Shown here one piece after another: positions 45,001 through 48,000 of a stretch of 64,000 bases of DNA (its first letter is position 1; each line of letters starts with the position of its first letter). Source of the stretch: Escherichia coli O157:H7. GTDB lineage: Bacteria; Pseudomonadota; Gammaproteobacteria; Enterobacterales; Enterobacteriaceae. The position numbers were made by a program. The stretch lies in assembly GCF_013167455.1 (NCBI RefSeq), contig NZ_CP038328.1; one strand, written 5' to 3'.

Positions 45001-48000
45001 CCGACTCGTCCGGCTGATTTCGATGCCCGCATGAAAGCGGTATCGCACTTCCGTACCCTGGAAGCAGCTGCAGCACTGGCGGCGGCGAACAAACGTGTAT
45101 CTAACATCCTGGCGAAATCTGACGAAGTGCTGAGCGATCGCGTGAATGCCTCTACTCTGAAAGAGCCGGAAGAAATTAAACTGGCGATGCAGGTTGTGGT
45201 GCTACGTGACAAGCTGGAGCCGTACTTTGCGGAAGGTCGTTACCAGGATGCGCTGGTCGAACTGGCAGAGCTGCGTGAACCAGTCGATGCCTTCTTCGAT
45301 AAAGTGATGGTCATGGTTGATGACAAAGAATTGCGTATCAACCGTCTGACCATGCTGGAGAAACTGCGCGAACTGTTCCTGCGCGTTGCGGATATTTCGC
45401 TGTTGCAGTAATAACGCCGTTATTAAAAAGCCTGCCATCTGGCAGGCTTTTTTTATCGCTAAATAATACAGCAACCTTTAATAATCTTCTGCTGAATAAA
45501 GATTATCTCATATATTAATTTTATGAGATTTTTTTAGGATTATATCAAGGAGAAGAAACAAACTTATTAAGCTAGAATAGCCACGGGTGCTTGAGACTGT
45601 TTGTCTCAGGTATTCACCGAAAGGCAGACAGAGAAAAGCCCCACCTGACTATAAATCAAAGTGAGGCCCCTCTATGTATAGACACCATAAGGTTAGCCTC
45701 TTACTCGTTGGAAATCAACACAGGGGGCTGGGAATGCCGCAGAAATATAGATTGCTTTCTTTAATAGTGATTTGTTTCACGCTTTTATTTTTCACCTGGA
45801 TGATAAGAGATTCACTGTGTGAATTGCATATTAAACAGGGGAGTTATGAGCTGGCGGCATTTTTAGCCTGCAATTTGAAAGAGTAAGAGTCTTCGGCGGA
45901 AAGTTATTCCCGCCTTTCTTACGGCGTTGCGCATTCTCATTGCACCCAAATTTATTTTTCACAAAAATAATACTAGATTTTATTACGCGATCGATTATTT
46001 ATTTCCTGAAAAACAAATAAAAAAATCCCCGCCAAATGGCAGGGATCTTAGATTCTGTGCTTTTAAGCAGAGATTACAGGCTGGTTACGTTGCCAGCTGC
46101 CGGGCCTTTAGCGCCGCTTTCGATGGTGAAGGACACTTTCTGACCTTCGTCCAGAGATTTGTAACCATCGTTCTGGATAGCAGAGAAGTGTACGAACACG
46201 TCTTTAGAGCCATCGTCAGGAGTGATGAAGCCGAAGCCTTTGTCAGCGTTGAACCATTTTACGATACCAGTCATTTTACCGGACATAGTGTATTACCTTT
46301 AATAATTAAGTGTGCCTTTCGGCGATATGGCGTGCTTTACAGATTTTGAAGCGTTAAAGGAATGTGCACTACGAGGGGTATCAACGATAACTCTTGAAGG
46401 GACTTGCCTTACTACACTGCTTTAATGGTCTGTACGTCAAACCGTTGATGTGCATTAAGCCACGCATTGGCGGGTGATGCAACAATTATTTTTCATATTT
46501 ATGATTAATCGGTTGGAAAACGGTCCTGTCATCAGGACCGTAAACAGCAATAAAGTGGATAAAAGTCTATTCCATCAACTGCTTACTTAATGCCGGGTTG
46601 GCTTGAATCAAACGCATCAATTTTAGTTCGGCACTTGAAGGCTTCACGCGTCTGGATTCCCATTCCTTTACCATGGCGACTGATACGCCCAAAACCCGGG
46701 CGAAATCATCGATTTTTAATCCTGTCCCTTTTCGTAACTGCTCAATTTCGGTACAGGACGTTGTTCTGTGCGTCAGGGTAATTTTCTGCGTTTCATCTTT
46801 AAAAACAATCTGTTCCAGGCTGCTCAACAGCTCATGCATTGGATCTTTATATTCCATTGAAAACTCCTCAAATCACACTGCGGGATCGTGAATTGCATCG
46901 AAGCTCATTAAGAATAGTCGGGAAAAGCAGACACAGCGGGGTGAAGTCAGGGCATGCTCTGGCTATGATTCGATTCAGCCAGTCATTTAGCGTGACTTAT
47001 AGCCACCTAACGATCTGATAAATGCCGATATATCTCTAACCACTCCTGGTTTGTAAAGATTTCGAAAATCTAACCTTCTGCGAAGGCGTAAATCTCTGGC
47101 TACAAAAAAGGCAACGGCAATATCATTTTTTAACAATGAAACAACAAATTAACCTTGTTTCATTTTCTCCATGATTTTACCAGGAAGATTACGTAGAAAG
47201 GGTATCCTGCAAGCCTGTCCTGGACTATCCTTGTCACGTCAGACACGCGTGTGTCGTTGTGCGCTTTTTTTGGGTGAAAGGAGTAAGAAAATGGCGACAG
47301 GAAAGTCCTGCTCTCGCTGGTTTGCGCCTCTTGCGGCGTTATTAATGGTAGTTAGCCTGAGTGGGTGTTTTGATAAAGAAGGCGATCAGCGTAAAGCGTT
47401 TATCGACTTCCTGCAGAATACAGTGATGCGTAGCGGTGAACGTCTACCAACCCTGACTGCCGATCAGAAAAAACAGTTTGGTCCTTTTGTCTCTGATTAC
47501 GCGATTCTGTATGGTTATTCTCAGCAGGTGAATCAGGCGATGGATTCCGGTCTGCGCCCGGTTGTAGACAGCGTTAACGCAATTCGCGTACCGCAGGATT
47601 ACGTTACGCAAAGCGGTCCGCTGCGTGAAATGAATGGTTCGCTGGGTGTGCTGGCGCAACAACTGCAAAATGCGAAGTTGCAGGCCGATGCTGCGCACTC
47701 TGCGCTAAAACAGAGTGATGACCTGAAACCGGTCTTTGATCAGGCATTCACCAAAGTGGTAACGACGCCAGCTGATGCATTGCAACCGTTGATTCCGGCG
47801 GCACAAACTTTCACGCAACAACTGGTGATGGTTGGAGACTACATTGCCCAACAAGGTACTCAGGTGAGCTTTGTAGCAAATGGCATCCAGTTCCCGACTT
47901 CACAGCAGGCAAGTGAATATAACAAACTGATTGCGCCATTACCGGCACAACATCAGGCGTTTAATCAGGCCTGGACTACAGCAGTTACTGCAACCCAATA

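What the first reader, a model, noticed from the sequence alone, without database searches (positions are those of the whole stretch)
45600..46020. hokA toxin locus without the insertion element that disrupts it in K-12
The glyS-cspA interval is only about 660 bp and contains a complete hok reading frame (50 aa, Hok-family sequence) with an upstream in-frame extension and room for the antisense sok promoter and the 3' fold-back elements. No transposase ORF is present. In K-12 this locus is recorded as inactivated by an adjacent IS150, so here the type I toxin-antitoxin system may be intact and functional.
Basis: partly seen in the sequence, partly recalled or inferred. Interest (0 to 1): 0.4.

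Follow-up and report, generated by a model that had tools for sequence, protein, structure and literature searches.

The report
Known hokA toxin locus, uninterrupted allele
This is the already annotated hokA/mokA/sokA toxin-antitoxin locus of E. coli O157:H7 in the insertion-free form that about half of sequenced E. coli carry, so it is ordinary, although the O157:H7 lineage has one private base change that may weaken it.

Summary
The 662-bp glyS-cspA spacer (45412-46073) holds a complete 50-aa hokA frame (45734-45886), the in-frame mokA extension (ATG 45674) and no transposase. The window is 100% identical to E. coli O157:H7 genomes, where RefSeq already annotates hokA.

In K-12, IS150 sits 32 bp upstream of hokA. 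A 39-bp deletion there also removes the mokA ribosome-binding site and start codon, and the sokA -10 box and 5' end.

Every sequence-level part of a hok/sok module is present here: the hok promoter, the tac/fbi 5'-3' pairing, the mok ribosome-binding site sequestered by its anti-SD box, the sokA promoter, a hairpin-plus-U-tail SokA, and a 3' stem-loop.

This is not new. 2830 of 5426 complete E. coli genomes have the uninterrupted spacer. The insertion-free hokA of E. coli C, which encodes the identical protein, was studied in 1999 and reportedly gave neither post-segregational killing nor rifampicin activation.

One caveat to "intact": a G-to-A change at 45900, found only in 312 O157:H7-like genomes, breaks a G-C pair in the terminal stem. 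The predicted hairpin weakens from -14.6 to -7.7 kcal/mol. In R1 hok, substitutions of this class abolish function.

Verdict: already known, low interest.

The parts
45573..45578 (+). Predicted hokA promoter -10 box, TAGAAT. The -35 region is weak. The transcription start is inferred at G45585, 7 nt downstream.
   Evidence: Read from the sequence. Position 45585 coincides with position 1 of the Rfam leader model. The generic promoter scan did not report this site, so it is inferred.
45585..45959 (+). Predicted full-length hokA mRNA of about 375 nt. The 5' end is well supported. The 3' end is uncertain and is placed at the U-run after fbi.
   Evidence: MFE -130.9 kcal/mol, z = -5.1 against shuffles. 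The Rfam leader match begins at 45585. No canonical terminator was found on the plus strand.
45585..45596 (+). tac element, GGGUGCUUGAGA. It pairs with fbi in the full-length form, or with ucb in the isolated leader.
   Evidence: In the MFE, 45585-90 pair with 45942-47 and 45592-96 pair with 45935-39, with pair probabilities of 0.85-1.0. The tac/fbi duplex is -18.9 kcal/mol against a shuffle mean of -8.0, with 0 of 500 shuffles as good. The tac/ucb stem forms when the leader is folded alone.
45635..45644 (+). ucb, the mok anti-Shine-Dalgarno box (AAAGCCCCAC).
   Evidence: It pairs with the mok SD (45661-45667) in the full-length MFE and with tac in the leader-only fold. The role is assigned by analogy with R1 (PMC9841398).
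45663..45700 (+). mok SD/dcb hairpin, GAGGC...GCCUC. It contains the mok SD (GAGG, 45663-45666), the mokA ATG (45674) and the Sok target region.
   Evidence: The hairpin folds at -10.5 kcal/mol here, against -13.9 in E. coli C, -13.2 to -14.2 in R1 and -10.2 in hokB. This whole segment is missing in K-12.
45674..45886 (+). mokA, a 70-aa frame. It is in frame with hokA and shares its stop codon.
   Evidence: ORF list. The SD GAGG lies 7 nt upstream of the ATG. K-12 annotates mokA with the same stop codon as hokA. The frame is open in the insertion-free alleles compared (E. coli C, PS10-3, 05-3629, F11, YL3 and O145:H28); in EcPF18 a 1-nt deletion just before the hokA ATG takes the mokA ATG out of frame with hokA.
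45734..45886 (+). hokA toxin gene, 50 aa, with Cys14, Cys29 and Cys46 encoded in the DNA.
   Evidence: Pfam HOK_GEF at 2.3e-23. NCBIfam HokA equivalog at 131.9 bits. 40% identity to R1 Hok. RefSeq WP_001135738.1, the same protein accession as E. coli C.
45690..45718 (-). Predicted sokA promoter: -35 TTGATT (45718-45713), a 17-bp spacer ending in GTAAGAGGC, and -10 TAACCT (45695-45690).
   Evidence: Read from the minus strand. It is positionally homologous to the R1 sok promoter (TTGCGC-17-TATCCT) and to the promoter of the annotated K-12 sokB (TTGCCG-17-TAAGAT). It is identical in E. coli C. It falls below the threshold of the generic scan.
45628..45683 (-). Predicted SokA antisense RNA of about 55 nt: a single-stranded 5' tail, a long hairpin and a U-rich tail. 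It covers the mok SD and start codon.
   Evidence: Fold of -25.6 kcal/mol, z = -3.8. The start is set by homology with sokB, and the 3' end is the end of the K-12 sokA remnant, which maps to 45662-45628.
45698..45706 (+). Upstream half of a 9-bp long-range helix. It pairs with 45881-45889, across the hokA stop codon.
   Evidence: Perfect complementarity (CUCUUACUC / GAGUAAGAG), paired in the MFE. R1 has the analogous CUUACCG / CGGUAAG.
45895..45914 (+). GC-rich terminal stem-loop expected to define and protect the 3' end of the processed (truncated) hokA mRNA. It carries the O157-private A at 45900.
   Evidence: -7.7 kcal/mol here, against -14.6 (E. coli C), -13.7 (K-12) and -15.9 (R1). All 11 other alleles have G. 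The A allele occurs in 312 of 5426 genomes, all O157:H7-like.
45935..45947 (+). fbi (fold-back inhibitory) element, UCUCAUUGCACCC, followed by a U-run at 45951-45959.
   Evidence: Identical in O157, E. coli C and K-12.

Best explanation
The region is the chromosomal hokA/mokA/sokA type I toxin-antitoxin locus of E. coli O157:H7, in its insertion-free form.

A weak promoter (-10 box at 45573-78) would produce a roughly 375-nt hokA mRNA starting at 45585. In its full-length form, the 5' tac element pairs with the 3' fbi element. The mokA ribosome-binding site is held by an upstream anti-SD box (ucb), and the hokA ribosome-binding site and start codon are buried. The mRNA is therefore stable but untranslated.

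Slow 3' trimming back to the GC-rich stem-loop at 45895-45914 would remove fbi and let the leader refold into the tac/ucb stem. That exposes the mokA start, and translation of mokA is needed for HokA synthesis.

A roughly 55-nt antisense RNA, SokA, is transcribed from the opposite strand (promoter 45718-45690, RNA about 45683 to 45628). It would pair with the exposed mok start region and block and destroy the processed mRNA.

HokA itself is a 50-aa membrane toxin.

Shown here: the identity of the locus, the presence of every sequence element, the absence of any IS, and the predicted pairings. Inferred by homology with R1 hok/sok and from reports on E. coli C hokA: transcription, processing and Sok control.

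The locus is most likely kept silent, and it is unlikely to give classical post-segregational killing. In the O157:H7 clade it may also be attenuated, because a private G-to-A change at 45900 halves the predicted stability of the terminal stem-loop.
For: Identity. The spacer is 100% identical to O157:H7 chromosomes, where hokA is annotated. It matches Pfam HOK_GEF at 2.3e-23, the NCBIfam HokA equivalog at 131.9 bits and the Rfam hok-leader model at 119.6 bits. It lies in the same glyS-cspA position as in K-12 and E. coli C.

No IS. The spacer is colinear with E. coli C over 662 bp, with 19 differences. IS150 is present only in the comparison strains.

Mechanistic elements.
- tac/fbi pair with probability 0.85-1.0. 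In the full-length MFE the mok SD pairs with ucb and the hok SD and AUG are buried.
- The tac/fbi duplex is -18.9 kcal/mol against -8.0 for shuffles.
- The alternative tac/ucb stem forms in the leader alone.
- An R1-like hok control behaves the same way in the same tests.
- The SokA fold and promoter are homologous to those of R1 sok and K-12 sokB.

Literature.
- The element definitions and the loss-of-function class of terminal-stem mutations come from PMC9841398.
- HokA is toxic on overexpression, and the E. coli C hokA locus showed no post-segregational killing and no rifampicin activation (bioRxiv 10.1101/2025.08.07.668861, citing Pedersen and Gerdes 1999).

The 45900 change. Hairpin -7.7 against -14.6 kcal/mol, G in 11 of 11 other alleles, and A in 312 O157-like genomes only.
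Against: No expression data were available for this strain.

The hokA and sokA promoters are inferred by position. Neither reached the threshold of the generic promoter scan.

The predicted MFE of the truncated mRNA keeps a 5' metastable hairpin rather than the open tac/ucb form. The R1-like control does the same, so this test is uninformative.

No canonical plus-strand terminator follows fbi, so the 3' end of the primary transcript is unknown.

The effect of 45900A is inferred from R1 mutants. Five G-C pairs remain at the base of the stem, so the mRNA may still be adequately protected.

The 1999 primary paper could not be read, so its results are cited second-hand.
Confidence: 0.8

Rival explanations
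1. One reading: with no IS present, the O157:H7 hokA/sokA module is fully active. It would kill cells when Sok decays, for example after transcription arrest or loss of the locus, as plasmid hok/sok does.
For: All sequence elements are present. HokA is intact and identical to a protein reported toxic on overexpression. A chromosomal single copy of R1 hok is lethal without Sok, so copy number alone is not limiting (PMC9841398). One paper states that hok/sok loci in ECOR strains are 'active' (PMC1635323).
Against: The insertion-free E. coli C hokA has the same protein, the same sokA promoter and the same tac/fbi elements. It reportedly gave neither post-segregational killing nor rifampicin activation. 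The O157 clade additionally carries 45900A, which weakens the terminal stem. In R1, mutations of this class remove the truncated mRNA and abolish toxicity.
Confidence: 0.15
2. The locus is a decaying relic. It is not expressed at a meaningful level, is under relaxed selection across E. coli, and has no present function in O157:H7.
For: There are many independent lesions in the population:
- IS150 in three configurations, in about 45% of genomes.
- The mok SD replaced in O145:H28 strain RM13514.
- A 1-nt deletion plus an fbi G-to-A change in EcPF18.
- 45900A in O157:H7.

The E. coli C locus shows no post-segregational killing phenotype. Amino-acid changes are about as frequent as silent ones among the few HokA variants seen.
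Against: The spacer is found in 5425 of 5426 genomes, and hokA is annotated in nearly every sampled record. The hokA reading frame is never the part that is hit. The tac/fbi elements, the sokA promoter and the SD elements are identical across distant lineages, which suggests continued constraint. According to the abstract as recalled, E. coli C hokA was reported to make an unstable antisense RNA and a 3'-processed mRNA. This is my own knowledge and could not be verified here.
Confidence: 0.25

Closest known systems
hokA/sokA of E. coli C (Pedersen and Gerdes 1999, Mol Microbiol 32:1090; cited)
   Same: Same glyS-cspA position. Identical HokA protein (WP_001135738.1). Identical tac, ucb, fbi, sokA promoter and hok SD. 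643 of 662 spacer positions identical.
   Different: There are 19 differences. Seven are clustered at 45668-45681, in the spacer between the mok SD and ATG and in mok codons 2-3, which is also the SokA 5' recognition tail. Another is G-to-A at 45900 in the terminal stem (-7.7 against -14.6 kcal/mol). A 2-nt difference lies just upstream of fbi.
hokA/mokA/sokA of E. coli K-12 (b4455, b4647, b4614)
   Same: Same locus, and 97% identity in the retained parts. HokA differs by G36E and N47K.
   Different: K-12 has a 1443-bp IS150 32 bp upstream of the hokA ATG. It also lacks window 45663-45701, which removes the mok SD and ATG, the SD/dcb hairpin, and the sokA -10 box and 5' part. The window has none of this.
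hok/mok/sok (parB) of plasmid R1
   Same: Same architecture and order of elements: tac, ucb, mok SD/dcb hairpin, sok promoter with the conserved GTAAGAGGC spacer end, hok, terminal GC stem-loop and fbi. The in silico behaviour is the same: tac/fbi paired in the full-length MFE.
   Different: Hok is only 40% identical. In hokA the mok frame is in frame with hok, whereas in R1 it is in a different frame. hokA is chromosomal and shows no reported post-segregational killing. No canonical terminator follows fbi in hokA.

Membership tests
[quoted passage not shown] | Hok/Gef-family toxin ORF of about 50 aa with a hydrophobic helix and conserved cysteines | tested here: met
   Pfam PF01848 at 2.3e-23 and 81.9 bits against a cut-off of 22. 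40% identity to R1 Hok. Cys14, Cys29 and Cys46 are present.
[quoted passage not shown] | Upstream overlapping mok frame with its own Shine-Dalgarno sequence, through which hok is translated | tested here: met
   ATG at 45674 with GAGG 7 nt upstream, the same spacing as in R1. The 70-aa frame is open through to the hokA stop codon. Translational coupling itself was not tested.
[quoted passage not shown] | Cis-encoded antisense Sok gene: a promoter inside the mok/hok leader, an RNA of about 55-65 nt with a free 5' tail, a hairpin and a U tail, overlapping the mok start region | tested here: met
   TTGATT-17-TAACCT at 45718-45690, positionally homologous to the R1 sok and K-12 sokB promoters. Predicted fold of -25.6 kcal/mol, z = -3.8. 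This is met at sequence level only. The -10 box matches the consensus at 3 of 6 positions, and the generic scan did not call it.
[quoted passage not shown] | 5'-3' fold-back: tac pairs with fbi in the full-length mRNA | tested here: met
   11 pairs in the MFE with probabilities of 0.85-1.0. Duplex energy -18.9 against -8.0 kcal/mol for shuffles, 0 of 500 as good. Complementarity is kept with different sequences in hokB, hokC and R1.
[quoted passage not shown] | mok SD sequestered by ucb in the closed form, with an alternative tac/ucb stem in the open form | tested here: inconclusive
   Both pairings are predicted: SD/ucb in the full-length MFE and tac/ucb in the leader alone. However, the MFE of the truncated mRNA stays closed. 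The R1-like positive control does the same, so the switch cannot be judged in silico.
[quoted passage not shown] | Stable GC-rich terminal stem-loop just after the hok stop codon, which protects the processed mRNA | tested here: inconclusive
   The stem-loop is present at 45895-45914, but A45900 makes an A-C mismatch. It folds at -7.7 kcal/mol, against -13.7 to -18.0 in five relatives. The change is O157-specific. Whether it still protects the mRNA is unknown.
[quoted passage not shown] | Leader RNA matches the family covariance model | tested here: met
   Rfam RF01794 at 119.6 bits against a gathering score of 59, full length, on the hok-sense strand.
[quoted passage not shown] | Behaviour: stable toxin mRNA, unstable antisense RNA, and killing on transcription arrest or loss of the locus | not testable with these tools
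   Second-hand only. E. coli C hokA gave no post-segregational killing and no rifampicin activation. The primary paper is not held.
HokA orthologue group (NCBIfam NF007290 equivalog) | Full-length match above the curated cut-off, and the conserved glyS-cspA position | tested here: met
   131.9 bits against a cut-off of 89, covering residues 1-50 of 50. Same neighbours as in K-12, BL21 and E. coli C.

The most novel reading that the evidence does not exclude
hokA is being silenced repeatedly and independently across E. coli, and the O157:H7 clade is one such case. Its private G-to-A change at 45900 would destabilise the terminal stem-loop of the processed mRNA and so attenuate the toxin without any IS. 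In other lineages the same 5-bp site in the leader (CAAAGTG, 45659-45663) has been used at least three times by IS150. Separately, two old allele classes differ at 7 of 14 positions exactly in the SokA recognition tail. That could mark a change in Sok/hok pairing specificity.
Probability: 0.3. Interest if true: 0.3.

Novelty: already known. Interest (0 to 1): 0.12.

Why it matters
It matters little as a discovery. Insertion-free hokA loci have been known since 1999, are annotated in RefSeq, and occur in about half of complete E. coli genomes.

The practical points are three. K-12 is a poor reference for this locus, because it has IS150 plus a 39-bp deletion. 'No IS' does not mean 'functional'. 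Anyone wishing to exploit chromosomal hok loci in O157:H7, for example with anti-Sok oligomers, should first check whether the clade-specific 45900A change still allows the processed hokA mRNA to accumulate.

Tried and rejected
1. The generic sigma-70 and terminator scan found neither the hokA nor the sokA promoter, and no plus-strand terminator. I therefore relied on positional homology with R1 sok and the annotated sokB.

2. I first labelled the 9-bp helix 45698-45706 / 45881-45889 as ucb/dcb. Reading PMC9841398 showed that ucb is the mok anti-SD box and dcb is the 3' half of the SD hairpin, so I relabelled these elements.

3. I folded the truncated mRNA to see the open form. It stayed closed, but so did the R1-like control, so the test is uninformative.

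4. I asked whether the O157 allele of the SD/dcb hairpin is defective. At -10.5 kcal/mol it is within the family range of -10.2 to -15.6, so I rejected it as a lesion.

5. I considered gene conversion from hokC as the source of the 7-substitution cluster. Neither allele matches hokC across the cluster, so this is not supported.

6. I tried to read Pedersen and Gerdes 1999 and the Fozo 2008 review. Neither is held.

7. I searched for O157-specific hokA/sokA expression data and found nothing useful.

8. The first guesses at coordinates for E. coli C hokA were wrong. The locus was found on the third attempt.

9. The weak Rfam hits at the glyS terminator (STnc370, Phe and Trp leaders, istR) are all below their gathering scores. 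They are terminator look-alikes and I rejected them.
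Full report
**What is there**

glyS ends at 45411 and cspA (minus strand) lies at 46074-46286, which leaves a 662-bp spacer. The spacer is 100% identical to many E. coli O157:H7 chromosomes. RefSeq already annotates a 153-nt hokA gene there, with protein WP_001135738.1.

- The 50-aa frame at 45734-45886 matches Pfam HOK_GEF (E = 2.3e-23) and the NCBIfam HokA equivalog (131.9 bits against a cut-off of 89). It is 40% identical to R1 Hok.
- The in-frame upstream extension starts at ATG 45674, giving 70 aa. It corresponds to mokA, which K-12 annotates with the same stop codon as hokA.
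- The Rfam family named 'sok' (RF01794) matches 45585-45736 at 119.6 bits. The match is on the hok-sense strand and ends at the hok AUG, so it is really the hok mRNA leader.
- There is no transposase ORF and no IS150 similarity.

**Comparison with K-12**

In MG1655, IS150 occupies 3720633-3722075, and mokA and sokA are annotated as pseudogenes. Alignment shows that K-12 is not simply the intact locus plus an IS. Window positions 45663-45701 are also missing. That stretch holds the mok Shine-Dalgarno sequence and ATG, the SD/dcb hairpin, the sokA -10 box and the first ~20 nt of sokA. BL21(DE3) has the same lesion.

**Anatomy of the O157 locus**

I use the element definitions given for R1 hok in PMC9841398.

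| Element | Coordinates | Note |
|---|---|---|
| hokA -10 box (TAGAAT) | 45573-45578 | G45585 lies 7 nt downstream |
| tac | 45585-45596 | |
| ucb (mok anti-SD) | 45635-45644 | |
| mok SD (GAGG) | 45663-45666 | |
| mokA ATG | 45674 | |
| dcb (GCCUC) | 45696-45700 | |
| hok SD (G-run) | 45723-45727 | |
| hokA | 45734-45886 | |
| GC-rich stem-loop | 45895-45914 | |
| fbi | 45935-45947 | followed by a U-run |

Folding 45585-45960 gives -130.9 kcal/mol with z = -5.1. In that structure:

- tac pairs with fbi, with pair probabilities of 0.85-1.0.
- The mok SD pairs with ucb.
- The hok SD and AUG are buried.
- 45698-45706 pairs with 45881-45889.

This is the closed, untranslatable form described for R1. 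The tac/fbi duplex is -18.9 kcal/mol against -8.0 for shuffled partners, with 0 of 500 shuffles as good. The same complementarity is kept with different sequences in hokB, hokC and an R1-like hok. The leader alone folds into the alternative tac/ucb stem.

The predicted MFE of the truncated RNA does not open. An R1-like control behaves identically, so that test says nothing either way.

On the minus strand, TTGATT-17 bp-TAACCT (45718-45690) sits exactly where R1 sok (TTGCGC-17-TATCCT) and the annotated K-12 sokB (TTGCCG-17-TAAGAT) have their promoters. All three spacers end in GTAAGAGGC. By homology SokA runs from about 45683 to 45628. It folds into a free 5' tail, a long hairpin and a U tail (-25.6 kcal/mol, z = -3.8).

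**Is it intact?**

Compared with E. coli C, whose hokA is the experimentally studied insertion-free allele, the HokA protein is identical. The spacer differs at 19 of 662 positions. tac, ucb, fbi, the sokA promoter and the hok SD are unchanged.

Seven differences cluster at 45668-45681. This covers the spacer between the mok SD and ATG and mok codons 2-3, which is also the SokA 5' tail. Both allele classes are common. The O157-like form, exact or with one mismatch, is in about 1300 genomes, and the C-like form is in about 1740. Both keep the SD, the ATG, the reading frame and a hairpin within the family range. I do not regard this cluster as a lesion.

One difference does matter. Position 45900 is A in the window and G in all 11 other alleles examined. 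The A allele occurs in 312 of 5426 genomes, and every named one is O157:H7-like. It creates an A-C mismatch in the terminal stem-loop and lowers its predicted stability from -14.6 to -7.7 kcal/mol. In R1 hok, 19 of 22 loss-of-function substitutions in the 3' UTR broke a C-G pair of this stem, and the truncated mRNA disappeared (PMC9841398). So the O157 locus is complete in parts, but it may be attenuated.

**What is already known**

The uninterrupted spacer is present in 2830 of 5426 complete genomes. Insertion-free hokA has been described for E. coli C and ECOR strains, and for AIEC strain NRG857c.

A 2026 preprint summarises Pedersen and Gerdes 1999. It says that hokA from E. coli C could not mediate post-segregational killing and was not activated by rifampicin, while HokA is toxic when overexpressed. 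I could not read the primary paper. HokA encodes both Cys29 and Cys46 in its DNA, so unlike HokB it needs no RNA editing.

**Conclusion**

This is the known hokA/mokA/sokA module in the common insertion-free state. The functional hope is weakened by the earlier negative result on an allele encoding the same protein, and by the O157-private change in the terminal stem. Novelty: already known. Interest: low.

**Side observations**

IS150 has used the same short site in the leader at least three times:

- A simple forward insertion with an AAG duplication at 45659-61.
- A forward insertion with AAGTG flanks on a C-type allele, followed by IS1.
- The K-12-type reverse copy, whose deletion endpoint is at 45662.

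Other lineages carry different lesions. O145:H28 strain RM13514 has lost the mok SD. EcPF18 has a 1-nt deletion before the hokA ATG and a G-to-A change in fbi.

Noticed in passing
window 45659-45663; loci L002/L003, L008, L009: IS150 has hit the same short site (CAAAGTG) in the hokA leader in three different configurations. Strain 4069 has a forward copy with a 3-bp AAG duplication. Strain 98223 has a forward copy flanked by AAGTG on a different allele, with IS1 next to it. K-12 and BL21 have a reverse copy with a 39-bp adjacent deletion ending at 45662. In an evenly spaced sample of hits, about 45% of genomes carry one of these.
   Followed up: partly
window 45668-45681: Two old allele classes differ at 7 of 14 positions, exactly in the mok start region and the SokA 5' recognition tail. 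The O157/B2-like form is in about 1300 genomes and the E. coli C-like form in about 1740. R1-like plasmid hok loci also vary in this same segment. This may reflect divergence in Sok/hok pairing specificity.
   Followed up: partly
L017 (O145:H28 RM13514), equivalent to window 45663-45666: The mok Shine-Dalgarno sequence GAGG is replaced (…GTGTACTGCCCC…) in an otherwise insertion-free hokA locus. This would be another independent way of silencing it.
   Followed up: no
L016 (strain EcPF18), equivalent to window 45733 and 45942: A 1-nt deletion just before the hokA ATG puts mokA out of frame with hokA. A G-to-A change in fbi removes one tac/fbi pair. This allele had the weakest full-length fold of those examined (-119.7 kcal/mol).
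   Followed up: no
window 45863-45934 (minus strand); L012 477-545: RefSeq annotates a 23-aa ORF antisense to the hokA stop codon and 3' UTR. It is called YsaE in K-12 and 'hypothetical protein' in O157. K-12 has an analogous small ORF, yncP, antisense to the 3' end of hokB. The O157 change at 45900 also alters this ORF. It has no NCBIfam match.
   Followed up: partly
window 45585-45736: The Rfam family called 'sok antitoxin' (RF01794) matches the hok-sense strand and its consensus ends at the hok AUG. It therefore models the hok mRNA leader rather than Sok RNA. Annotations based on its strand would put 'sok' on the wrong strand.
   Followed up: partly
window 45948-46049: No canonical plus-strand terminator follows fbi. 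There is only a U-run (45951-45959), and the cspA terminator (46022-46049) is convincing only on the minus strand. hokC in O157 does have a clean terminator after its fbi (L011). How hokA transcription ends is unexplained.
   Followed up: no
IS150 left end (L003 3134-3163) compared with window 45941-45948: The IS150 left inverted repeat contains TGCACCCA, identical to the core of the hokA fbi element. Its complement resembles tac (GGGTGC). This is probably chance, as it is only an 8-mer, and it was not tested.
   Followed up: no
L010 (strain YL3), between hokA and cspA: An extra segment of about 450 bp carrying an ORF annotated as yidD lies downstream of hokA, replacing window 45958-46015.
   Followed up: no
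window 46074-46286 and 46019-46446: The cspA gene, together with its full thermoregulator mRNA structure (Rfam, 498 bits), is labelled 'cspE' by PGAP in many genomes, including O157:H7, although it is cspA by position and sequence.
   Followed up: no
window 46567-46857 (minus strand): yiaG encodes a 96-aa HTH protein with a sub-threshold match to the MqsA antitoxin C-terminal domain (26 bits against a cut-off of 30). No partner toxin is evident next to it.
   Followed up: no
window 26800-26842, 63394-63467, 63564-63645: Other Rfam matches above gathering score in the window: ES036 (CssrF) sRNA, a tRNA, and naRNA4 (a REP-derived nucleoid-associated RNA).
   Followed up: no
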